From a virus (taxonomy: Duplodnaviria; Heunggongvirae; Uroviricota; Caudoviricetes): a stretch of 44,407 nt of DNA. The notes under the pieces were generated by a model. That model worked only from the letters and a program-made list of their open reading frames with translations. It did no database searches and had not been told where the DNA came from. Positions 832 through 33,901 of the stretch are shown here, in pieces; the stretch's first letter is position 1; each line of letters begins with the position of its first letter. The position numbers and the translations under genes are program-made. Where the stretch lies: the IMG/VR virus record IMGVR_UViG_3300010279_000003, positions 1 through 44,407 of that record, one strand, 5' to 3'.

Positions 832-1326
832 TTAGCGGCGTCTCTTGACGCCGTGGTTTTCATGAAATCCGTAAGCAGCTTCTGCGGCTTTACGAACGGC
901 AACCGCCTCTTCTAATGCGCAAAAGAATCCAAGGTTAATGTGTTCGCCGTCAACACGAATAGTTGCGCGCCACTTCGATACATCCTTTCGCCAATACACG
1001 CCGGTGTATCCCGACTTATTATTAGTTAATAGCGCCCTGTTTCTGGAGTTACCTTTATTATTCGTTTTCCTTAAATTCTCTATCCTATCGTCCGCTCTGT
1101 TGTGATTGATGTGGTCTATTTGGTCGCCTTTATTTAATTTATCGGTTGGATTATGCATCTCCCATACGATATGACTAACTTTGTACTTTTTACCCAAACA
1201 GCTAACATATCGGTATCCGTTTTTGTTCACAGAACCCGCAACTATCCCCTCGGGCTTGTTCTTGCAAGGCTTATTAACCCAGTAAAGAACTCCTGAATCG
1301 TACCGGAAAACACTATACCAATTCAT
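832..1326 (-). CDS. HNH homing endonuclease with C-terminal AP2 DNA-binding domain
   Basis: HNH_3-like motif (GDQIDHINHNRADDRIENLR) followed by AP2-like segment (YTGVYWRKDVSKWRATIRVDGEHINLGFF). Confidence 0.75.
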   Translation of the reverse strand: MNWYSVFRYDSGVLYWVNKPCKNKPEGIVAGSVNKNGYRYVSCLGKKYKVSHIVWEMHNPTDKLNKGDQIDHINHNRADDRIENLRKTNNKGNSRNRALLTNNKSGYTGVYWRKDVSKWRATIRVDGEHINLGFFCALEEAVAVRKAAEAAYGFHENHGVKRRR

Positions 1327-3679: not shown

Positions 3680-5881
3680 TTACTTAGCATAGCGTTTTAA
3701 CTCCGCACCTTCCGCTACAAGAGGGAAACCCTCCGCCCACTCAGGCAGCGAACACATTAATTTTTCCAGTTCAGCCACCGTGTACTCTGGGGCATCTGGA
3801 GTTTCGCACACCAATTCATCGTGTACCGAAAGCACGATGGGGTACCCGCCGCCTTCAACGTTAATCATCGCATACGCAAGTAAATCACGGCACAGCGCCT
3901 GAACAATGTTTTCGCAGGCTTTACCGCCGTGGGTGTACAGGGTAGTCCATTGGCGGGTTAACTGGTTTTCCCCCTGATACTTGATTCGCACATTCGTGTT
4001 TACCCGTCCGTCTTCGTCCGTTTCCTTTGTCACACTAACGCCGATTCCCGGATACGAGAGGATGCGACCTGACGGCAACTCCATGCATAACCACCAACCA
4101 GGAACCTTCCTGCCGGATGAATCAAATTCTACAGTACGCCATATGCGGATAGCCCTTTCCCCATTCCTTCGCAAGTGTGCTCCCGCCCAAAATTCACGAC
4201 CAGGATTACGCACAGCGGCTAAAATTCCGTCTTTAAGGTCACGCCAGAACGCTACTGTTTCAGGGTGTGACTCACGCCACATACGCTTGATTGCGTCGCA
4301 TGTGCGCCACACTTTCTTGTCAAGAATATATGATGGTCGATCGTCCTTTTCCCCTGGATGCGGGGGGCGCTTGGCTTCCTGGATGCGAGCCCATTCATAT
4401 CCTCTCGCGGTGGCTGACCAGATGTGGTCGGGGAATGTACCGTCCATTGTTTTTGCCATCTCAATAAGGTCAAGACCTAAGTTTTTGGCGAACGTAACGA
4501 ACGCTCCTACGCCGCCCTCGTAGCCGAGGCCAAGCTCGCAAGCCTTGCCTATCTGTCTTATTTCCTTGAAGTTTTTCTTAATATCGTCGGGGTCCATGCC
4601 AAACATCTTGCCCGCGGTTACACAGTAAATATCCAGTCCGGCGCGGAACGTATCGAGCGCGGTTTCTTCACCTGCCAGCCACGCAAGCCCGCGGCCTTCA
4701 ACGTTAGAGTAATCGGCGACGACAAACTTACGCCCGGCTTCCGGTATTATGCAGCTACGCACAGTAGATGCCGTTAGTTTGGCTACATCAAAACGGCGAT
4801 GGGCGCGGCCCTTAAGTAACGCCGAAATGCCTTTATCCAGCTCATAATCGTGATAGTAACCGCGTGCCAGGTTCTGCGGCTGGAAGCCTTTACCTGCCCA
4901 TCGCAGAGTACGTTTTGCCCCACCGTACTGCAAGCAACCGCGACGGCGGTCGTCCGAAGAGCGGCCCAGCAGCAGCGGGTTATATTTCGTGGACGCCGTG
5001 GACGCGGCCCCGAGGCGCATTTCGATAATCGTGCGTGCGTCGTCCGGTAAATCATCGTCCGCAAGCAAGTCATTCAGTGTCGACTTCTGCGCGTTGTGAA
5101 TACGGTGCGCAGGCGCAAGTTCACGCAGAATCGGAAGAAAGTCCTTCCCAGTAAGCGAGCAGCCGTGTTTGCGTTGGGCCTCTTCCTGTAACTGCGCTTT
5201 GTGTTTCTCCACGGCTTCAATCGCGGCTTCCGCCAGTGCCACGTCAACCTTAAACCCGCGGTCGTTGATTAACTGGTCCAGTTCCAGTACACGGTCTTCG
5301 AACTCGGAGTTACCCCACCGCGGCAGCTTATGGAAGACTTCACGCATTGCGGTGATGTCACTCACGGCGTATTTGATGAACAGTGCCCACTCGTCCGGGT
5401 GTGTTTCAGCGGTGTAGCGACGGATTTTGTAGTTCTTCGGCGTCGGTTTAGAGAAACGCTGAATCAGCGCCTTGCCTCGTTTGTCTTTCGCGTTGTCTGC
5501 TGACACGCCCAGCACTTCGCACAACGCATCGAGGGAACCCGGCAGCGCGTGACGAAACGCCCAAATCATCGTATCAATGGTGTTGCCTACAGGAATATCA
5601 AAGTCCCAGCAGTGTTTCATGATGAGCCTATCGAACATTGAGCCGTTGTGCCATACCATCTTGATGCGACTGTTCGGCTTAACCAGACGGCGTAGAGCGC
5701 GGTGTAAATCACCCGGCATGTCGCTGCCGTCGGTGCAATCCCATACCTGCACAGGCTCGTCGTCAAAGGCATAGGTACAGATGAGCACTTCGGTTGACGG
5801 GTGTTCGGCGTAAGCGTAGGAGCCGACTTTCTTCAAATCGGCTTCGGAGAATGTTTCAAAGTCCAGGTATAAGTAGCTCAT
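3680..5881 (-). CDS. DNA polymerase, family A, with 3'-5' exonuclease domain
   Basis: Exo motif YLDFETFS; pol motifs DYSNVEGR, RQIGKACELGLGYEGG, VHDELV; start set at ATG 5881 (MSYLYLDFE) with AAGGA RBS rather than the upstream alternative start in the ORF track. Confidence 0.9.
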   Translation of the reverse strand: MSYLYLDFETFSEADLKKVGSYAYAEHPSTEVLICTYAFDDEPVQVWDCTDGSDMPGDLHRALRRLVKPNSRIKMVWHNGSMFDRLIMKHCWDFDIPVGNTIDTMIWAFRHALPGSLDALCEVLGVSADNAKDKRGKALIQRFSKPTPKNYKIRRYTAETHPDEWALFIKYAVSDITAMREVFHKLPRWGNSEFEDRVLELDQLINDRGFKVDVALAEAAIEAVEKHKAQLQEEAQRKHGCSLTGKDFLPILRELAPAHRIHNAQKSTLNDLLADDDLPDDARTIIEMRLGAASTASTKYNPLLLGRSSDDRRRGCLQYGGAKRTLRWAGKGFQPQNLARGYYHDYELDKGISALLKGRAHRRFDVAKLTASTVRSCIIPEAGRKFVVADYSNVEGRGLAWLAGEETALDTFRAGLDIYCVTAGKMFGMDPDDIKKNFKEIRQIGKACELGLGYEGGVGAFVTFAKNLGLDLIEMAKTMDGTFPDHIWSATARGYEWARIQEAKRPPHPGEKDDRPSYILDKKVWRTCDAIKRMWRESHPETVAFWRDLKDGILAAVRNPGREFWAGAHLRRNGERAIRIWRTVEFDSSGRKVPGWWLCMELPSGRILSYPGIGVSVTKETDEDGRVNTNVRIKYQGENQLTRQWTTLYTHGGKACENIVQALCRDLLAYAMINVEGGGYPIVLSVHDELVCETPDAPEYTVAELEKLMCSLPEWAEGFPLVAEGAELKRYAK

Positions 5882-12378: not shown

Positions 12379-12407
12379 TTGCACACCCCAATATAATAGG
12401 ATACTAT
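12379..12407 (+). promoter_or_regulatory. Sigma70-like promoter, class B (TTGCAC-N17-TACTAT)
   Basis: Spacer ...AATATAATAGGATACTATTCA; same family found six times. Confidence 0.6.
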
Positions 12408-12441
12408 TCACTTATCGAAACGAGACAGAGGAGTGAGGGTT

Positions 12442-12582
12442 ATGTTTAAGAAAGGTCAGTTGGCGAAAAAGAGGATGAATATGGTGTTGTCGCCGTATTT
12501 AGCCTTATACGGAAGAAACATGGTTACGTTCATCACAATAATTTACAGCTCATCGGCAACAATTTTAAATTCAAAGGGGTGA
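12442..12582 (+). CDS. Small hypothetical protein (~46 aa)
   Basis: Short ORF downstream of promoter with GAGG-type RBS. Confidence 0.35.
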   Translation: MFKKGQLAKKRMNMVLSPYLALYGRNMVTFITIIYSSSATILNSKG

Positions 12583-12586
12583 AGTG

Positions 12587-12790
12587 ATGGAAGAATTATT
12601 TGAAGAACTGAAACACCATAGACTGGAGAAAGTGCACTTCCAGGTAAACAGATACGAGGTTGTTTTATTAGACGGCCCGACTATTTCTTCCGGGGTATGC
12701 GAAGACTTGCTAAAAGTTTTACGTGCGCTACGAACGGCATCGAATCATGATGCTCGTGCCGAAGACTCTGAGGGAGGTTGCCGTGAATAA
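12587..12790 (+). CDS. Hypothetical protein
   Basis: ORF track 12584..12790, ATG at 12587. Confidence 0.5.
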   Translation: MEELFEELKHHRLEKVHFQVNRYEVVLLDGPTISSGVCEDLLKVLRALRTASNHDARAEDSEGGCRE

Positions 12791-19764: not shown

Positions 19765-21234
19765 ATGTTAACTATGAACGGTCAGAATCAGGGTGTTAAG
19801 ACAAAACACCGGGAATGGCTACATCACTTCAATAAATGGCAGAAGGTGCGCCACGCGCTGGAAGGCGACCTCATCCGTTACCTGCGCAATGTCGGGAAGA
19901 ACGAGCCTGACCCGACCTATGCGGCACAGCGCCAGGAAGAATACGAGAACGGCGCTATCTGCTACAACTTCACTAAACGTACCCTGGCGGGGATGGTCGG
20001 CAGTGTTATGTGTAAAGACCCTGAGCAGATTATCCCGCCTGAACTTGAGTACCTGTTACGCAACGCTGACGGTTCAGGTGTCGGGCTATGGCAGCACGCG
20101 CAGGATACGCTAATGGAGATTGATTCGGTGGGCCGCGGCGGGTTGCTGGTTGACGCCCCGGAGACAGCCGCGGCGACAGCGGCGGAACAGAACGCGGGGT
20201 TATTAAACCCGGTCATCGCATTTTATACCGCGGAGAACATCATTAACTGGCGGCTTACCCGCGTCGGTTCAGTTAACCGTGTGACAATGGTCGTGCTGCG
20301 TGAGGTGTTGGAATACTCAGAACCAGGGGAAGAGTTTGAAACAAAAGTCGGTGAACAGTACCGTGTCCTTGACCTGGTTGAGGGCCGCTACCGTCAGCGC
20401 ATTTACCGATTCGATGTCGAAGGTGGCGCACAGGGTGATGTAATCGAAATATTCCCGGAACTCGGCGAACAGTTACGTGGCAAAATCCCGTTCACGTTCA
20501 TTGGGGCGAGCAACAACGATGCGACCATCGACGACGCGCCTTTGCTGCCGTTGGCAGAGCTTAATATCGGGCATTTCCGCAACAGTGCAGACAATGAGGA
20601 GTCCAGCTTTGTTGTAGGGCAACCCACTCTGTTCATCGCCCCGGGCGAGAACATGAGCATGGAACAATGGAAAGAAGCCAACCCACACGGTGTGCGCATG
20701 GGGTCGCGTTCAGGTCATAACATCGGCTACGGCGGCAATGCGTTTCTGGTTCAGGCGGGAGAGAACAACCTTGCTAAGCAGAACATGCTGGATAAAGAGA
20801 ATCAGGCCATCCAGATTGGCGCACAGCTTATCACCCCGACGCAGCAAATCACCGCTGAATCGGCCCGTCTGCAACGCGGCGCTGACACGTCTGTTATGGC
20901 GACAATCGCACGTAACGTAAGCATGGCGTACACCGATGCGTTGCGCTGGGTGGCTGCGATGCTAGGGTTGCGTGAAGGCACAGAGATTGAGTTCAAACTG
21001 AATATGGAGTTCTTCCTGCAACCGATGACCGCTCAGGACCGCGCTCAGTGGATGGCTGATATTAACGCAGGCCTGTTACCGGCTACCGCCTACTACGCGG
21101 CATTGCGTAAGGCGGGTGTAACCGACTGGACTGACGAGGATATTCAGAACGCAATCGAGGATACACCGCTGCCGTTAGGTGCGGTTACTCAGGTGACAGG
21201 CGAGATTCCGCAGGAGCCGCGGCAACAGGAGTAA
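19765..21234 (+). CDS. Portal protein
   Basis: 489 aa immediately after terL, acidic C-terminus; assignment by position and size. Confidence 0.75.
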   Translation: MLTMNGQNQGVKTKHREWLHHFNKWQKVRHALEGDLIRYLRNVGKNEPDPTYAAQRQEEYENGAICYNFTKRTLAGMVGSVMCKDPEQIIPPELEYLLRNADGSGVGLWQHAQDTLMEIDSVGRGGLLVDAPETAAATAAEQNAGLLNPVIAFYTAENIINWRLTRVGSVNRVTMVVLREVLEYSEPGEEFETKVGEQYRVLDLVEGRYRQRIYRFDVEGGAQGDVIEIFPELGEQLRGKIPFTFIGASNNDATIDDAPLLPLAELNIGHFRNSADNEESSFVVGQPTLFIAPGENMSMEQWKEANPHGVRMGSRSGHNIGYGGNAFLVQAGENNLAKQNMLDKENQAIQIGAQLITPTQQITAESARLQRGADTSVMATIARNVSMAYTDALRWVAAMLGLREGTEIEFKLNMEFFLQPMTAQDRAQWMADINAGLLPATAYYAALRKAGVTDWTDEDIQNAIEDTPLPLGAVTQVTGEIPQEPRQQE

Positions 21235-21242
21235 AATAGAAA

Positions 21243-21268
21243 AGCCCCATTACGGGGCTTTATTTTAT
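21243..21268. terminator. Bidirectional intrinsic terminator between portal (+) and 21265..21447 (-)
   Basis: Stem AGCCCC/GGGGCT with T-rich tracts on both sides. Confidence 0.6.
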
Positions 21269-21447
21269 ACATCTCTGCTCGCCAGATAGTCACAGCGAGC
21301 TATGGCTAAGGATAAGCTACGGTATGCGCTATCGGATTTAGCGTGGGTAAACCCAGAAATCATTACGTAATACACCCCTTTATCGTTTAGAACCCAGTAT
21401 TTGCCGTTTTCGTGCATTATGTCTTTTTCTTTGAACATTTTAACCAC
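21265..21447 (-). CDS. Hypothetical protein, orphan minus-strand gene in the late region
   Basis: 60 aa; own class B promoter and RBS. Confidence 0.5.
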   Translation of the reverse strand: MVKMFKEKDIMHENGKYWVLNDKGVYYVMISGFTHAKSDSAYRSLSLAIARCDYLASRDV

Positions 21448-21467
21448 CCCCTGTTTAAGTTATCTGA

Positions 21468-21496
21468 ATAGTACCCTATTATATTGGTGTCTGCAA
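21468..21496 (-). promoter_or_regulatory. Sigma70-like promoter, class B (TTGCAG-N17-TACTAT)
   Basis: Read on minus strand; about 45 bp nearly identical to the copy at 24318..24346. Confidence 0.6.
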
Positions 21497-21540: not shown

Positions 21541-22584
21541 ATGAGCTTACTTACATCTCTAATCAGCCACCAAATATGGCTGCAACGCACCGCATCCGGT
21601 GAAGTGAAAGACCTCGCACCGTTCCTTCAGGAGATGCGGGACGAAATCAAACGGCAGGTGCTGTTATTCGGTGACGACGGGCGAAGCACCGCGCGGCTGA
21701 ATAAGCTGTTACGCGACCTTGAAGAAGCACTGACAGGACTTACAGGCGACTGGCAAACAAAGCTGACAGAAGACCTTAAGGAGCTGGCGGCGTATGAGGC
21801 TGAGTGGAATGTGAAGACACTTACGGCTAATGTTAACGCTGAATTTGTTACTCCGACCGCTGAGCAGGTGTGGTCTGCTGCCGTGTTTCAACCGCTGGCG
21901 TTAAATGACAAGCCTGTCGATTTCACCAAGCTGATGGAAGGCTGGGGTGAAACAGAAGTGTCTCGCCTGGTAACCGGCGTTAAGATGGGCTTTGTACAGG
22001 GCCAAACCACACGGCAGATTGTTAAGAATGTCGTAGGCGCTGGTGGGCTGGCAGACATCTCGGAACGAAACGCAGCTACGGTAATACGCACCGCGCTGTC
22101 CCATGTATCGAACGAAGCCCGCAATGAGACGTACCGACAGAATGACGACATCATCGAGAAGTACGAATGGGTGTCAACGCTGGACAGCCGTACCAGTACG
22201 ATTTGCAGAGCCAGAGACGGAATGACGTGGGAAATTGGTAAAGGTCCGATGCCCCCCGCCCATTTTGGATGTCGAAGTACCACTGCACCGGTAATCAGTT
22301 CGGAGTTCGACTTCCTAGATAAAGGTGCAAAACGCGCGGCTAAGGGTGCGGACGGCGGTATGCAGGTAAGCGCAGACACCACCTATTACGAGTTCCTGAA
22401 ACAGCAACCGGCATGGTTCGTGGATGAAGCACTCGGACCTACCCGCGGTGCTATATTCAGGAATAGTGGGATATCCCCAGAGGAATTCCGGGTAATATCC
22501 GTCGACGCTTTTGGTAGACCTTTAACCTTGAAGGAGATGGCGGCGTTAGATAACAGGGTTGCTGAATATCTTAGGTCGGTATAA
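21541..22584 (+). CDS. Head morphogenesis / minor head protein
   Basis: Position after portal; start ATG 21541 with GGAGG RBS inside ORF-track ORF 21484..22584. Confidence 0.6.
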   Translation: MSLLTSLISHQIWLQRTASGEVKDLAPFLQEMRDEIKRQVLLFGDDGRSTARLNKLLRDLEEALTGLTGDWQTKLTEDLKELAAYEAEWNVKTLTANVNAEFVTPTAEQVWSAAVFQPLALNDKPVDFTKLMEGWGETEVSRLVTGVKMGFVQGQTTRQIVKNVVGAGGLADISERNAATVIRTALSHVSNEARNETYRQNDDIIEKYEWVSTLDSRTSTICRARDGMTWEIGKGPMPPAHFGCRSTTAPVISSEFDFLDKGAKRAAKGADGGMQVSADTTYYEFLKQQPAWFVDEALGPTRGAIFRNSGISPEEFRVISVDAFGRPLTLKEMAALDNRVAEYLRSV

Positions 22585-22640: not shown

Positions 22641-22698
22641 AACCCCATGAAGGTATGCCTATCTCTGGCATCGACCAATCTTCATGGGGTTTTCTTAT
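22641..22698 (+). terminator. Long hairpin (12-bp stem AACCCCATGAAG/CTTCATGGGGTT) with T-rich tail
   Basis: Inverted repeat read directly; the ORF-track start at 22655 lies inside it. Confidence 0.45.
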
Positions 22699-22708
22699 AG
22701 GGTTTAAT

Positions 22709-23278
22709 ATGGGAATTGTTTTTGGTGTGGGTATTAACGATGTTTCACCAATAAGTTGCGGAGGGGTGCATATAGCGTCCTACGCCGTATGGAAGAACAT
22801 GTTAAAGAGGTGCTACGACAAGAAATGGCAGCAAAGAAACAGAACTTATATAGGTTGCCGCGTGTCGGACGATTGGTTGGTGTTCAGTAATTTCAAGGTC
22901 TGGTTTGATGATTTTTATGTACCTGGGTGGCAGATAGATAAGGATTTACTTAACCCGGGAAATAAGGTTTACGATGCTTCTAACTGTGTTTTCATCCCTA
23001 AATCCCTCAATACTTTCCTAACAGCCCACGACGCTCTTCGAGGCGAACACCCACTCGGCGTACATTTCCATAAACAAAAGAAAAGATTCATCGCTCAAGT
23101 ATCCGTGGATGGCGTATCTGAACAAATAGGCGCTTACGAAACCGCTCAAGAGGCACACGTAGCATGGTTTCATAGAAAAATTGAATTAGCATATGAATAC
23201 AAAGGTCTTTGCGATAGCATAGACCCACGCCTTTTCGAAGGCGTCTTACGTAAGATTAACTCAATGAAAGAGGTTTAG
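22709..23278 (+). CDS. AP2-domain protein, homing-endonuclease-like
   Basis: C-terminal AP2-like segment (GVHFHKQKKRFIAQVSVDGVSEQIGAYETAQEAHVAW); no clear HNH histidines seen in the N-terminal part. Confidence 0.5.
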   Translation: MGIVFGVGINDVSPISCGGVHIASYAVWKNMLKRCYDKKWQQRNRTYIGCRVSDDWLVFSNFKVWFDDFYVPGWQIDKDLLNPGNKVYDASNCVFIPKSLNTFLTAHDALRGEHPLGVHFHKQKKRFIAQVSVDGVSEQIGAYETAQEAHVAWFHRKIELAYEYKGLCDSIDPRLFEGVLRKINSMKEV

Positions 23279-23740: not shown

Positions 23741-23744
23741 TAAA

Positions 23745-23773
23745 AGGCCCCATAATGGGGCCTTAGTTTTATT
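23745..23773. terminator. Bidirectional intrinsic terminator
   Basis: Stem AGGCCCC/GGGGCCT, loop ATAAT, T-rich tail. Confidence 0.6.
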
Positions 23774-24290
23774 TAAATCGCGCAGGCATTAACACCATAA
23801 AGGCCGTGTTTGAAAATTGTATTTTGCATCCTCTGGTTTGGTCCTGGAAATCGAAACGAGCAATTTCATTTTTGTATGCCTTAGAAATCTTGTACGCGTC
23901 TGCCAAATAGCGCAGAGTGAACCCTATACTGTCGACAACACCCGGTGTGATGTGCGCCACGCGTCTCCAGTCAGGAAAGTTTCCTTCTACAACATCTACC
24001 GGAAGTGTACATATAAGCGCACGATTATCGTCATAGAAAGATACACTGCCGTTGTCGTGGTTTACCTCTGCGTAGTTAAATTTAGAAGGCTCTCTCCCTT
24101 TGATGTCTATGAGAGTCCCTTTCTCAACGTTGGTCTTCACATTGTCGCAGAACAATCTATGACTGTCCGTAGACACTATCAATCCTTCAGGGTCTATGTA
24201 AAAAGCGTTCAAATAGTAGCGCACATCATTTTTAGCCCTGCATATTTTCGCCCCTACATACGCAGGGAAAGTAATTACTGTAGTAACCAT
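23769..24290 (-). CDS. Truncated beta sliding clamp (DnaN) homologue: domain II plus the C-terminal half of domain III, no domain I
   Basis: Matches to E. coli DnaN as I recall it: DVRYYLN, TDSHRL (vs TDGHRL), FPDWRRV (vs FPDYRRV), IGF..YL.D, C-terminal VLMPARF (vs VVMPMRL); own promoter and AGGAG RBS. Confidence 0.7.
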   Translation of the reverse strand: MVTTVITFPAYVGAKICRAKNDVRYYLNAFYIDPEGLIVSTDSHRLFCDNVKTNVEKGTLIDIKGREPSKFNYAEVNHDNGSVSFYDDNRALICTLPVDVVEGNFPDWRRVAHITPGVVDSIGFTLRYLADAYKISKAYKNEIARFDFQDQTRGCKIQFSNTAFMVLMPARFK

Positions 24291-24317
24291 TTATCATCTC
24301 CTGTTTAAGTTAACTGA

Positions 24318-24346
24318 ATAGTACCCTATTATATTGGTGTGCGCAA
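24318..24346 (-). promoter_or_regulatory. Sigma70-like promoter, class B (TTGCGC-N17-TACTAT) driving the DnaN-like gene
   Basis: Read on minus strand; conserved leader TTAACTTAAACAGGAG follows. Confidence 0.6.
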
Positions 24347-31582: not shown

Positions 31583-32014
31583 CTAGTAGCGTTTTAAAGC
31601 ATCCGATGTGTGTGTTTTTACGTTATTGTTGAATATCTGTGCATACCACAACCTTTCTTTCGCGTTCCAGTAAACCCCGGTTACTCCTGATTTATTATTA
31701 CGCTGTTTTGACATATTTTTATGATTTTCCGCATTGGACTTTTTAGCTAAGTTAAGCGGTCTATTGTTTATTCGGTTATGGTCTAGATGGTCTATTTGAT
31801 CTGACGAGGTTAGCTTATCGTTAGGATTATTTAAGTCCCAAGCTATACGGTGCGCCGCGTGCCATTTACCCCTGAAAAATATCCTTCTATACCCGTCTCG
31901 CTGTACAGTACCTGCCTCCTCTCCAGCCTTAGCCCTCCCAGACCGTGTTACTCTGTTAAATATCCTTCCTGAAATTAAGTCGTATATGAAAAATTCATTC
32001 CAGTCCATAATCAT
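31583..32014 (-). CDS. HNH homing endonuclease with AP2 domain
   Basis: SDQIDHLDHNRINNRPLNL (HNH_3-like) and GVTGVYWNAKERLWYAQI (AP2-like). Confidence 0.75.
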   Translation of the reverse strand: MIMDWNEFFIYDLISGRIFNRVTRSGRAKAGEEAGTVQRDGYRRIFFRGKWHAAHRIAWDLNNPNDKLTSSDQIDHLDHNRINNRPLNLAKKSNAENHKNMSKQRNNKSGVTGVYWNAKERLWYAQIFNNNVKTHTSDALKRY

Positions 32015-32283: not shown

Positions 32284-32473
32284 TGTTAACTCTCTTAAAT
32301 CGGGCTATGCCTGACTCGTTAATGCTGCCTATTTCAAAGAAGCTGCGATATTTAGGCGAATACATTCTTACGTCGCCGTTCTCTAGGGTGACCCCTTCAT
32401 ATACCGCACCTACTTCGAATCCATTTTTCTCCGCGTACGGACTCACATCGGTGCATTCATACATATCTTTCAT
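32273..32473 (-). CDS. Hypothetical protein
   Basis: 66-aa ORF in operon. Confidence 0.5.
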   Translation of the reverse strand: MKDMYECTDVSPYAEKNGFEVGAVYEGVTLENGDVRMYSPKYRSFFEIGSINESGIARFKRVNSDK

Positions 32474-33600
32474 CCCAGCATCTCCGGTGAAATAGTTAAA
32501 CGTGCGACCTCGCCATATTCGGCGCTATAAGTAATTACGTTTGCACTACGGCCCGACATCCATCCGCCGCGGGAGGCGTAGGCGTCTTTGGCCGCTAAGG
32601 TGCGGTGTTGCTCAACAATCATGTTACGGCTTTCTACAATCTTCTGGTGGTGCAGGTGGCCTACGTGGGCGTAGCTGTAAACACTCTCACCGAACGCTTT
32701 GCGGAACTTGGCAATCATAACCGGTTCAATAGCGTCGAATCGTGCTTTATGCCCGTGATGGAAGAACAGCGTAGTTTTGCCGTGTTGCACCATCTTGTAA
32801 ACATCCGGCGACGTATCGACAATCACTCGGCTGTCGTTTGAGTATAAAACCGTGAACATTTCGGCAAGCCATACGGAGCCGACAGGGTCGTGATTTCCTT
32901 GCACGATAAGCAAGCGAACATTTTTGTGCTTAACCAGCGCCATATCAACGACACGGCGTACCATACGAATCATGTAGCGTACAAGTTTCTGATAGCGGGT
33001 GTCCGCATCAAGAACATGGCGCGACTCTGGCGTAACGGCATCCAGGCTATCGAAGTGCGCGAAGTCTCCTAGCAGATTAATAACACCCGTTCCTGCGTCA
33101 GGCGCTTTCTGGAATGCTGCATCGAACCATCGAGAGAACAGGTCTTCCGCGATTTTCATATCCCAGTCGTCGCCGCTCTCGTCCGCCCATGCCAGCATAC
33201 CGAGATGAAAATCAGATACCGTGTAAAGATTGAGTAGCTTGTCGTCACGTTTGGCGCGTGCCACTTTAACAGGCGCAACGGGGGTAATCTCTGACTTCAT
33301 GCCTTCGATTACGGCCTTCATTAACTCGACCTGACGTTCTGCGTCAGTGTCGGTCTTAACCCATTGCAGTTTAGTGTTGCCGAACTCGTCCACCAGAGAC
33401 GACGTACCTTTAATCTTGTAGCCGTCAGGCACAAGGTGACTAACGTCGCGACCGTGGCCTACACCTTTCTTAGCCAGCTTCGCTTTACGGATACGGATAA
33501 CGCGGTCTGAGATTCCGTACTTACGTGCGATATCAATAATTTTTGTTCCGGCGTTCAATTCTTCCCGTAACTGTTCGTCGGTTATTTTCTTATGAGCCAT
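32470..33600 (-). CDS. HTH-domain protein fused to a calcineurin-like metallophosphoesterase (SbcD/Mre11-like motifs)
   Basis: N-terminal HTH (IIDIARKYGISDRVIRIRKAK); MPP motifs SDFHLG, GDFAHFD, GNHD, GHLHH. Confidence 0.7.
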   Translation of the reverse strand: MAHKKITDEQLREELNAGTKIIDIARKYGISDRVIRIRKAKLAKKGVGHGRDVSHLVPDGYKIKGTSSLVDEFGNTKLQWVKTDTDAERQVELMKAVIEGMKSEITPVAPVKVARAKRDDKLLNLYTVSDFHLGMLAWADESGDDWDMKIAEDLFSRWFDAAFQKAPDAGTGVINLLGDFAHFDSLDAVTPESRHVLDADTRYQKLVRYMIRMVRRVVDMALVKHKNVRLLIVQGNHDPVGSVWLAEMFTVLYSNDSRVIVDTSPDVYKMVQHGKTTLFFHHGHKARFDAIEPVMIAKFRKAFGESVYSYAHVGHLHHQKIVESRNMIVEQHRTLAAKDAYASRGGWMSGRSANVITYSAEYGEVARLTISPEMLG

Positions 33601-33639: not shown

Positions 33640-33831
33640 TCACTTCTCTTTGACATTCGAGTTGCACGCCCAGATTAAAATAAATACCCACGGCAGCAGA
33701 ACCCAACCGAGAAACAGATTAGCCATGAATATCGCTAATTTAGCTTTATGGTTGCGCATATGCGCCACGAGAAATGGGATAAAATAAACTAAAACGATAA
33801 TGATTAAGAAGAACATAGTAATACCTGTCAT
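33640..33831 (-). CDS. Small membrane protein resembling the superinfection-immunity (Imm) family
   Basis: AIFMANLFLGW...W...LIWA pattern; family recalled from memory. Confidence 0.55.
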   Translation of the reverse strand: MTGITMFFLIIIVLVYFIPFLVAHMRNHKAKLAIFMANLFLGWVLLPWVFILIWACNSNVKEK

Positions 33832-33872
33832 GGGGTAGCTCCTGTTTGAGTTAACATTGTTGGTGTAAGTGA

Positions 33873-33901
33873 ATAGTATCCTATTATGTTGGGGTGTGCA
33901 A
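33873..33901 (-). promoter_or_regulatory. Sigma70-like promoter, class B (TTGCAC-N17-TACTAT) driving the accessory operon
   Basis: Read on minus strand; spacer ACCCCAACATAATAGGA. Confidence 0.6.

What the first reader, a model, noticed from the sequence alone, without database searches (positions are those of the whole stretch)
21265..21496. Orphan 60-aa minus-strand gene between portal and head morphogenesis genes
It has its own class B promoter nearly identical over about 45 bp to the one driving the DnaN-like gene, and the same leader. Its function is unknown; the shared control suggests co-expression with the DnaN-like protein.
Basis: seen in the sequence. Interest (0 to 1): 0.35.

Follow-up and report, generated by a model that had tools for sequence, protein, structure and literature searches.

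The report
Swappable early-promoter gene cassette in phage
The small reverse-strand gene is a real, self-contained accessory cassette (its own promoter, a 57-residue protein and a terminator) that related phages move between marked slots in their head-gene region; its protein belongs to a widespread phage family whose function nobody has studied.

Summary
A minus-strand gene lies between the portal and MuF-type head-morphogenesis genes of a Kagunavirus-like phage. Its promoter and leader match those of the DnaN-like gene over about 49 nt with 3 mismatches.

Three corrections:
- The protein is probably 57 aa (ATG at 21438), not 60.
- It is not an orphan. It matches PHROG 20712, which includes the first early gene of phage SP6, and has 536 clusters at 50% identity.
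- The 32-nt promoter occurs four times in the window, including at the head of the early operon.

Comparison with relatives shows a classic moron: promoter, leader, ORF and hairpin terminator. The slot is empty in about 70% of sampled relatives and holds at least 8 different cargo genes in others. The 57-aa and DnaN-like cassettes swap between two slots, with homology ending at the promoter and the hairpin. They assort independently, so shared control reflects slot architecture, not a functional partnership.

The protein is under purifying selection (dN/dS 0.06–0.23) and folds confidently into four β-strands plus a helix, with no known structural or family match. It sometimes neighbours ArdA, ArdC, Ocr-like genes or orphan methyltransferases. 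An early anti-defence or host-directed role is my best guess, at about 35%.

The parts
21468..21496 (-). Sigma-70-type promoter of the cassette: -35 TTGCAG (21496-21491), a 17-nt conserved spacer containing TATAAT, and -10 TACTAT (21473-21468). A short palindrome AATAG-N4-CTATT overlaps the -10.
   Evidence: Read from the sequence. The 32-nt motif occurs 4 times in the window against 0 expected. An exact 23-mer core is present in 43 IMG/VR Kagunavirus-like stretches. No phage RNA polymerase was found among the large proteins of the window. Promoter activity itself was not tested.
21439..21467 (-). Short unstructured leader (TCAGATAACTTAAACAGGGGGTGGTTAAA) with Shine-Dalgarno AGGGGG 8 nt before the ATG. 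Its 5' part (..TTAAACAGG) is shared with the DnaN-like gene and with other cargo genes in relatives.
   Evidence: It folds no better than shuffled sequence (z=+0.76). No Rfam match.
21265..21438 (-). Coding sequence of the 57-aa protein MFKEKDIMHENGKYWVLNDKGVYYVMISGFTHAKSDSAYRSLSLAIARCDYLASRDV (PHROG 20712; homologue of SP6 gp1). An alternative GTG start at 21447 would give 60 aa.
   Evidence: dN/dS is 0.06-0.23. AlphaFold2 mean pLDDT is 89, with four beta-strands and a C-terminal helix.
21230..21261 (.). Bidirectional intrinsic terminator: hairpin AAAGCCCCGTAATGGGGCTTT (21241-21261) followed by a U-run on the minus strand. It ends the cassette and also sits just after the portal stop codon.
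   Evidence: Folding energy is -15.4 kcal/mol, z=-3.35. Homology between cassettes in different slots ends at this hairpin.
23744..24346 (-). Sister cassette in slot B (after the Hoc-like gene): promoter 24315-24346, DnaN-like CDS 23769-24290, hairpin terminator 23744-23764.
   Evidence: It is 96.8% identical over 627 bp to the slot-A cassette of phage fBC-Eco01, and the flanks are unrelated.
12379..12410 (+). Third copy of the promoter motif, at the head of the rightward early operon (first ORF ATG at 12442).
33870..33901 (-). Fourth copy of the promoter motif (1 mismatch). It drives a 63-aa superinfection-immunity-like membrane protein (33640-33831) and a 376-aa repair-exonuclease-like protein.
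   Evidence: PHROG 1039 and PHROG 704.

Best explanation
The feature is a moron-type accessory cassette in a virulent Kagunavirus-like siphophage. It consists of a host sigma-70 promoter (TTGCAG-17-TACTAT), a leader of about 22 nt, a 57-aa ORF and an intrinsic hairpin terminator. It is inserted antisense in the otherwise minimal portal|MuF intergenic slot.

The promoter is one of four near-identical copies in the genome. One copy heads the early operon, so the gene is most probably transcribed by host RNA polymerase with the early genes (inferred).

The repeated promoter/leader on the 5' side and the GCCCC-loop-GGGGC hairpin on the 3' side act as portable boundaries. Comparison with relatives shows that whole promoter-to-hairpin units, including this one and the DnaN-like one, have been exchanged between slot A (portal|MuF) and slot B (after the Hoc-like gene), or replaced by other cargo (shown). 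The exchange presumably happens by short-homology recombination during co-infection, possibly using the phage's own Gp2.5-like annealing protein and exonuclease (inferred).

The cargo is a small, soluble, near-neutral protein of four beta-strands plus a helix. It belongs to a large uncharacterised family found in early or accessory regions of many proteobacterial phages, prophages and some plasmids. It has no conserved partner gene and no invariant catalytic residues. I take it to act alone, early in infection, by binding a conserved host or defence component. An anti-restriction or anti-defence role is the single most likely function at about 35%. That functional step is inference only.
For: Cassette anatomy.

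Slot behaviour:
- The empty slot in phage Golestan holds only a hairpin between the portal stop and the MuF ATG.
- In a spread sample of 30 relatives in which both flanks matched, 22 were empty (match length 955-976 bp) and 8 were occupied.
- At least 8 distinct cargo genes sit behind the slot-A promoter and at least 7 behind the slot-B promoter.

Exchange:
- The window's slot-A 57-aa cassette aligns with the slot-B cassette of IMGVR_UViG_3300045988_039442 over 268 bp, from just upstream of the -35 to the hairpin, and no further.
- The DnaN-like cassette is in slot B here and in slot A in fBC-Eco01: 627 bp at 96.8% identity, with unrelated flanks.
- Window slot A and fBC-Eco01 slot A share the MuF flank, the promoter and the leader up to ..TTAAACAGG, then diverge.

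Host promoter: the large proteins of the window matched replication and repair families, with no RNA polymerase among them.

Early context elsewhere:
- The SP6 homologue is the first gene of the host-RNA-polymerase-transcribed early region, upstream of an Ocr-like gene.
- The homologue in FSL SP-031 is also an antisense cassette. It has a consensus TTGACA-17-TAATAT promoter, a similar leader and a near-identical terminator.

Real protein: dN/dS 0.06-0.23, pLDDT 89, 536 clusters at 50% identity and 668 at 90%.

Anti-defence hints:
- ArdA is adjacent in L054 and L107.
- An ArdC-N protein, a DUF3560 protein and an N6-adenine methyltransferase sit immediately upstream in L051.
- One homologue is fused to an NPPF-motif methyltransferase.
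- A plasmid copy lies near DUF3560 and Fic genes.
- Orphan methyltransferases and anti-restriction genes cluster in anti-defence islands (PMC11541004).
- Kagunaviruses are reported to be highly sensitive to restriction-modification systems (PMC11990801).
Against: - No transcript, transcription start site or promoter activity was measured.
- The -35 matches only 3 of 6 consensus positions. The invariant spacer, which itself contains TATAAT, is not explained by a plain sigma-70 promoter. It could be an operator or a second -10 element.
- The recombination mechanism is inferred from breakpoints, not observed.
- Association with anti-restriction genes is sporadic: about 4 of roughly 60 contexts, with no recurrent neighbour (largest neighbour cluster 6 of 56 loci).
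- The protein has a net charge of about +1, so it is not an acidic DNA mimic like Ocr or ArdA.
- No match in Pfam, NCBIfam, PADLOC or PDB sequences.
- No significant Foldseek match to a solved structure (best E=0.18).
- No occurrence in the supplementary files of one large accessory-gene screen.
Confidence: 0.7

Rival explanations
1. The 57-aa protein is a small sequence-specific DNA-binding or transcription-regulator module of the AP2/integrase-N-terminal type (beta-sheet packed on a helix). It would tune phage or host transcription or replication, perhaps at the conserved promoter motif itself.
For: - The predicted fold is four beta-strands plus a C-terminal helix.
- Weak Foldseek matches to an AP2 domain (7et4, 36 columns at 1.6 A, probability 0.69) and to HNH/homing-endonuclease and integrase entries in BFVD.
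- A weak match to a PHROG labelled transcriptional regulator (E=0.089).
- The domain occurs N-terminal to an N6-adenine DNA methyltransferase and to zinc-ribbon segments.
- It is often found near Cro/CI-like and replication genes.
Against: - All structural and profile matches are below significance (PDB E of 0.18 or worse).
- Net charge is about +1, with few conserved basic residues.
- The family spans phages with unrelated promoters and hosts, which argues against a phage-specific operator.
- The cassette is absent from most Kagunaviruses that keep the promoter motif.
Confidence: 0.15
2. The cassette encodes a function against competing phages or for self-protection (superinfection exclusion or inter-phage competition), like the Imm-like cargo behind the fourth promoter copy, rather than an anti-host-defence factor.
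For: - The same promoter class drives a superinfection-immunity-like protein (PHROG 1039).
- Morons often carry exclusion genes (established knowledge).
- The gene is also found in prophages.
Against: - The protein has no membrane segment or signal peptide, read directly from the sequence.
- It is the first early gene of virulent SP6 and sits in early regions of virulent Webervirus phages.
- No PADLOC match.
Confidence: 0.1
3. The ORF is incidental. The element would act mainly as RNA or DNA, for example as an antisense transcription unit or terminator module that insulates or times the portal-to-MuF late transcript.
For: - The antisense position inside the late operon.
- The bidirectional terminator.
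- Convergent transcription could interfere with late read-through (inference).
Against: - Strong purifying selection on the protein (dN/dS 0.06-0.23).
- The protein family is conserved in hundreds of unrelated contexts.
- Most relatives do without the cassette and keep only the hairpin.
- No Rfam match and an unstructured leader.
Confidence: 0.03

Closest known systems
Morons of lambdoid phages (Hendrix/Juhala concept: promoter + gene + terminator inserted between two genes that are adjacent in relatives)
   Same: - An independent unit with its own promoter-like element and intrinsic terminator.
- It is inserted between portal and MuF, which are adjacent in most relatives.
- It is dispensable and variable, and flanked by conserved late genes.
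   Different: - The host phage is virulent, so there is no expression from a prophage.
- The promoter is not unique to the cassette. It is a copy of the phage's own repeated early-promoter motif.
- The cassette is antisense to the operon that carries it.
PeSL (promoter-early stem-loop) mobile regulatory cassettes of T4-type phages (Arbiol et al. 2010, PMC2839356; Comeau et al. 2014, PMC4122927)
   Same: - Repeated sigma-70-like early promoters and stem-loop terminators bracket small non-essential ORFs.
- Differences between close relatives map to these motifs, implying shuffling by recombination between them.
   Different: - In PeSLs the stem-loop is part of one composite motif, lying within or beside the promoter. 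Here promoter and hairpin are the two separate ends of a single-gene unit.
- There are 3-4 copies per 44-kb genome, and two of the slots lie among the head genes rather than in dedicated hyperplastic regions.
- Mini-circles were not examined.
PHROG 20712 / SP6 gene 1 (gp0.2) family of small phage proteins
   Same: - Full-length profile match (E=2.3e-26).
- 70% identity to SP6 gp1.
- Same length and predicted fold as FSL SP-031 S4TSY7 (TM-score 0.94).
   Different: Nothing distinguishes it from the family. The family itself has no assigned function, no Pfam entry and no solved structure.
Early anti-restriction proteins (Ocr, ArdA, ArdC) and anti-defence islands of plasmid leading regions (PMC11541004)
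   Same: - Small, expressed first on entry (inferred), and carried by phages, prophages and plasmids.
- Sometimes adjacent to ArdA, ArdC-N, Ocr-like genes or orphan methyltransferases.
   Different: - No sequence or fold similarity to any of them.
- Not acidic.
- No experimental evidence.

Membership tests
Moron (independent accessory transcription unit) | Own promoter immediately upstream of the gene | tested here: met
   TTGCAG-17-TACTAT at 21496-21468. It is one of four near-identical copies against 0 expected. This is sequence evidence only; activity was not measured.
Moron (independent accessory transcription unit) | Own factor-independent terminator immediately downstream | tested here: met
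   Hairpin at 21241-21261 followed by a U-run; -15.4 kcal/mol, z=-3.35.
Moron (independent accessory transcription unit) | Inserted between genes that are adjacent in close relatives | tested here: met
   In Golestan, portal and MuF are separated only by a hairpin. 22 of 30 sampled relatives have the short form.
Moron (independent accessory transcription unit) | Transcribed independently of the surrounding operon | not testable with these tools
   Needs RNA-seq or 5'-RACE.
T4-type PeSL cassette | Composite motif in which the stem-loop lies within or directly beside the early promoter | tested here: not met
   Only a 5-bp palindrome (AATAG-N4-CTATT) overlaps the -10. The stable hairpin is about 210 nt away, at the 3' end of the ORF.
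T4-type PeSL cassette | Repeated motif that marks the breakpoints of ORF gain, loss or replacement between close relatives | tested here: met
   Breakpoints fall at the promoter/leader and at the hairpin. Cargo is diverse behind a conserved motif.
T4-type PeSL cassette | Formation of mini-circles by recombination between motifs | not testable with these tools
   Needs PCR or sequencing of infected-cell DNA.
PHROG 20712 (SP6 gp1-like small proteins) | Full-length significant match to the family profile | tested here: met
   E=2.3e-26, residues 1-54 against profile positions 2-56 of 60. tblastn 70% identity to SP6 gene 1.
Known anti-restriction families (ArdA, Ocr, ArdB/KlcA, ArdC) | Profile or fold match to the family | tested here: not met
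   No Pfam or NCBIfam hit. No PDB sequence hit. Foldseek against PDB gave a best E of 0.18 to unrelated folds.
Known anti-restriction families (ArdA, Ocr, ArdB/KlcA, ArdC) | Strongly acidic DNA-mimic composition (Ocr, ArdA) | tested here: not met
   8 Lys/Arg against 7 Asp/Glu, net about +1 (read from the sequence).
AP2/integrase-type DNA-binding domain | Three-stranded sheet packed on a C-terminal helix, with a significant structural match | tested here: inconclusive
   The topology is similar, but the best AP2 match has E=1.5 and probability 0.69 over 36 columns.
Functional pair with the DnaN-like protein | Co-occurrence of the two genes across genomes | tested here: not met
   Among 9 genomes whose fetched stretches carry either gene, only this window has both. 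For L001, L003, L004, L017 and L030 the stretch covers both slots.

The most novel reading that the evidence does not exclude
Two linked claims.

1. The SP6-gp1/PHROG 20712 family is a new, broadly distributed immediate-early anti-restriction or anti-defence protein, possibly acting on or with N6-adenine methyltransferase/restriction complexes.

2. The invariant 32-nt early-promoter motif of Kagunaviruses, together with the hairpin, works as a dedicated recombination landing pad. It would let these restriction-sensitive phages swap counter-defence cargo between genomes and between slots, as a siphophage counterpart of T4 PeSLs.
Probability: 0.2. Interest if true: 0.6.

Novelty: new member of a known kind. 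Interest (0 to 1): 0.33.

Why it matters
If the reading is right, Kagunaviruses offer a compact and tractable system. These are 41-44 kb phages that are already used as synthetic-biology chassis and are now part of the BASEL collection.

Accessory genes sit in two or three defined slots marked by promoter and terminator. This gives a simple rule for finding candidate counter-defence or takeover genes: whatever follows the 32-nt motif. It also gives natural insertion sites for engineering.

The 57-aa protein is a good first target. It is tiny, confidently folded, conserved from SP6 to Bordetella and Ralstonia phages and to plasmids, and wholly uncharacterised.

As it stands, however, this is an ordinary moron carrying a protein of unknown function.

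Tried and rejected
Searches for a known function that found nothing:
- Pfam, NCBIfam and PADLOC scans of the 57-aa protein: no family.
- Profile search of PDB sequences: nothing even at E of 10 or below.
- Foldseek against PDB: no match at E of 0.001 or below. The top hits (a toxin-antitoxin module, profilins) look like chance.
- Foldseek against BFVD: only uncharacterised family members.
- Full-text searches for the PHROG identifier and for a signature peptide, and a search of the supplementary files of one accessory-gene screen: nothing.

Domain fusions: of 10 longer homologues scanned, one carries an N6-adenine methyltransferase and one a zinc-ribbon (Stc1/DUF6510) domain; the other 8 have no known domain.

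Neighbour clustering over 59 loci found no recurrent partner, so an operon-partner or toxin-antitoxin model was dropped.

RNA-element ideas were dropped: no Rfam hits and no tRNA genes in the window, and the leader is unstructured.

Phage-RNA-polymerase promoter: the fBC-Eco01 paper assigns this motif to a 'phage-encoded RNA polymerase'. I rejected that because the large proteins of the window matched replication and repair families and none is an RNA polymerase.

The perfect TATAAT inside the spacer was considered as the -10. It has no conserved -35 at 16-18 nt in any of the four copies, so TACTAT with TTGCnn at 17 nt was preferred. This is read from the sequence and remains unresolved.

Full report
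**What the window is.**
- The 1.2 kb around the finding is 85-92% identical to many Escherichia phages of genus Kagunavirus (Guernseyvirinae).
- Upstream lies a 489-aa portal gene (19765-21234). Downstream lies a MuF/SPP1-gp7-type head-morphogenesis gene whose real start is the ATG at 21541.
- The large proteins of the window matched a DNA polymerase, a helicase-primase, a helicase, exonucleases and a Gp2.5-like single-strand-binding/annealing protein. None is an RNA polymerase.

**Check of the observation.**
- The minus-strand ORF ends at 21265.
- The mechanical ORF call starts at the GTG at 21447 (60 aa). All close homologues are 57 aa and start MFKEKD. The ATG at 21438 lies 8 nt after AGGGGG, and relatives have AGGAGG at that position. 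I take 57 aa as correct.
- The promoter and leader similarity to the DnaN-like gene is real. A 27-mer is identical at 21464-21490(-) and 24314-24340(-), with none expected by chance. The aligned core of 49 nt has 3 mismatches.
- A 32-nt version of the motif (TTGCnnnCnCCAATATAATAGGrTACTATTCA) occurs four times: 12379-12410(+), 21465-21496(-), 24315-24346(-) and 33870-33901(-).
- The first copy heads the rightward early operon. The last drives a superinfection-immunity-like 63-aa membrane protein and an SbcD-like exonuclease.
- Both minus-strand cassettes in the head region end in similar bidirectional hairpins, with folding energies of -15.4 and -15.8 kcal/mol.

**What kind of promoter.**
- With no phage RNA polymerase found, the element must be read by host RNA polymerase.
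- The arrangement that is conserved in all copies is TTGCnn, 17 nt, TACTAT.
- The spacer is invariant and itself contains a perfect TATAAT. A 5-bp palindrome (AATAG-N4-CTATT) overlaps the -10.
- Plain sigma-70 recognition does not explain that degree of conservation. It may reflect an operator, a second -10, or homogenisation by recombination. This is left open.
- The fBC-Eco01 genome paper found the same repeat with PHIRE (seven copies) and attributed it to a phage RNA polymerase (PMC9825357). I do not think the gene content supports that.

**The cassette is a moron in a variable slot.**
- In phage Golestan the portal stop and the MuF start are separated only by a hairpin.
- In an evenly spaced sample of the 178 matching GenBank phages, both flanks matched in 30 records. 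Of these, 22 have the short, empty form (955-976 bp) and 8 carry inserts of various sizes.
- I fetched every IMG/VR stretch that contains the 23-nt promoter core (43 stretches) and read what follows it. The upstream flanks define four sites.
  - Slot A (portal|MuF) carries at least 8 different cargo genes across the 10 other loci read there: the 57-aa gene, the DnaN-like gene, and ORFs of 52, 61, 71, 93, 94 and 106 aa.
  - Slot B (after the Hoc-like gene) carries at least 7.
  - Slot C carries mostly the Imm-like gene or a secreted 108-aa protein.
  - Site E is the early operon.

**The cassettes move as units.**
- The 57-aa gene is in slot A here and in two metagenomic contigs. It is in slot B in IMGVR_UViG_3300045988_039442. 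The two versions align over 268 bp, from just upstream of the -35 to the hairpin, and no further.
- The DnaN-like gene is in slot B here and in slot A in fBC-Eco01: 627 bp at 96.8% identity from promoter to hairpin, with unrelated flanks.
- Window slot A and fBC-Eco01 slot A share the MuF flank, the promoter and the leader up to ..TTAAACAGG, then diverge.
- The two genes are not a pair. Among nine genomes with either gene, only this window has both.
- No isolate phage in the GenBank collection has a close copy of the 57-aa gene. The best match is 72% identity, in Klebsiella Webervirus phages. It is therefore a rare cargo among Kagunaviruses.

**The protein.**
- It matches PHROG 20712 (unknown function) end to end, E=2.3e-26.
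- It has no Pfam, NCBIfam, PADLOC or PDB-sequence match.
- Homologues include:
  - the first early gene of Salmonella phage SP6, in the same host-transcribed region as an Ocr-like gene;
  - genes in the small-ORF left end of Klebsiella Webervirus genomes;
  - an antisense cassette in Cornellvirus FSL SP-031, with a consensus sigma-70 promoter, a similar leader and a nearly identical terminator;
  - genes in Bordetella BPP-1, Ralstonia, Yersinia and Variovorax phages.
- An exhaustive profile search finds 536 clusters at 50% identity. A second search finds 668 clusters at 90% identity; the 120 listed are all unnamed or 'hypothetical'.
- Among four Kagunavirus copies dN/dS is 0.06-0.23.
- AlphaFold2 gives a confident model (pLDDT 89) of four beta-strands and a C-terminal helix.
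- Foldseek finds no significant solved structure and only uncharacterised viral relatives.
- Across the wider family only I7 and A45 are invariant, and mainly core residues are nearly so. This argues for a binding module rather than an enzyme.
- Net charge is about +1, so it is neither a DNA mimic nor an obviously basic DNA binder.

**Context as a clue to function.**
- Clustering the neighbours in 59 loci shows no recurrent partner. The largest neighbour family occurs in 6 of 56 loci. The gene stands alone among small early or accessory ORFs, or near replication and repressor genes.
- In Rhizobiales prophages it lies between the terminase and the integrase/regulator end.
- In a minority of contexts it adjoins anti-restriction genes:
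  - ArdA in an Agrobacterium prophage and a related viral contig;
  - an ArdC-N protein, a DUF3560 protein and an N6-adenine methyltransferase in a Phycisphaerales element;
  - DUF3560 and Fic genes on a Burkholderia plasmid;
  - one homologue fused to an NPPF-motif methyltransferase.
- Orphan methyltransferases and anti-restriction genes are hallmarks of anti-defence islands (PMC11541004). Kagunaviruses are reported to be highly sensitive to restriction-modification systems (PMC11990801).
- This makes an early anti-defence role the most attractive single hypothesis. The association is sporadic, and I put it at about one in three. DNA binding or regulation, and inter-phage exclusion, remain live alternatives.

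**Comparison with known systems.**
- The unit meets the sequence-level definition of a moron: its own promoter, its own terminator, inserted between genes that are adjacent in relatives, and dispensable.
- In behaviour it resembles the PeSL cassettes of T4-type phages, where repeated early promoters and stem-loops mediate modular shuffling of small ORFs (PMC2839356).
- It is not a PeSL in the strict sense, because promoter and hairpin are separate ends of a single-gene unit rather than one composite motif.
- The protein is a plain member of an existing but uncharacterised family.

**Verdict.** The interpretation needs re-framing: this is a cassette slot, not a two-gene regulon, and the gene is not an orphan. 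It is a new member of a known kind and of modest interest. Its main value is as a pointer to defined cargo slots in Kagunaviruses and to a small, widespread, unstudied early protein.

Noticed in passing
window 33640-33901 (-) and 32470-33600 (-): A fourth copy of the promoter motif (1 mismatch) drives a 63-aa superinfection-immunity-like membrane protein (PHROG 1039), followed by a 376-aa SbcD/Mre11-like repair exonuclease. In relatives the same slot instead carries a secreted 108-aa protein or a 97-aa protein.
   Followed up: partly
window 23769-24290 (-): The 173-aa 'DnaN-like' cargo matches beta-clamp models only weakly and only over about one domain: Pfam DNA_pol3_beta_2 E=0.007, and TIGR00663 E=3.7e-4 over model positions 146-247. 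Its best PHROG (3007) is labelled 'RusA-like resolvase', while GenBank records call it a sliding clamp or DNA polymerase III. The annotation is inconsistent and its function is open.
   Followed up: partly
window 22655-23278 (+); also 31583-32014 (-) and 832-1326 (-): Three HNH homing-endonuclease-like genes. The 207-aa one sits between the MuF and Hoc-like genes, where the related contigs L003 and L004 have the two genes directly adjacent. It is likely a recent homing insertion.
   Followed up: partly
window 12442-12588 (+): The first ORF of the early operon looks frameshifted. Its N-terminus (MFKKGQLAKK..) is in one frame, while the conserved C-terminus (..EDEYGVVAVFSLIRKKHGYVHHNNLQLIGNNFKFKGVK) is in another. 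Relatives encode a single 60-89 aa protein. This is either an indel or pseudogene, or an assembly error.
   Followed up: partly
window 21468-21490 (-), and the other three motif copies: The 17-nt promoter spacer is invariant, contains a perfect TATAAT, and includes a palindrome (AATAG-N4-CTATT) that overlaps the -10. A sigma-70 promoter does not need this much conservation. It may be an operator or a recombination target.
   Followed up: no
57-aa protein residues 40 and 43 (window about 21310-21321, -): Among copies that are 86-98% identical, almost all amino-acid variation falls on two positions (R/S/A/G at residue 40; S/C/Y/D at residue 43). These lie at the strand-to-helix loop, which is also where more distant homologues carry a 4-residue insertion. 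This may be an interaction surface under diversifying pressure.
   Followed up: no
L050 (Salmonella phage FSL SP-031) 4686-5540: In this Cornellvirus, the slot after the Hoc-like gene carries an antisense gene annotated as phosphoadenosine phosphosulfate reductase. The antisense-cassette architecture therefore extends across Guernseyvirinae, with quite different cargo.
   Followed up: no
PMC9825357 (fBC-Eco01 genome paper) compared with window gene content: The paper assigns the repeated motif (tgAATAGTa-ccTATTat-T) to a 'phage-encoded RNA polymerase'. No RNA polymerase gene was detected among the large proteins of this closely related genome.
   Followed up: partly
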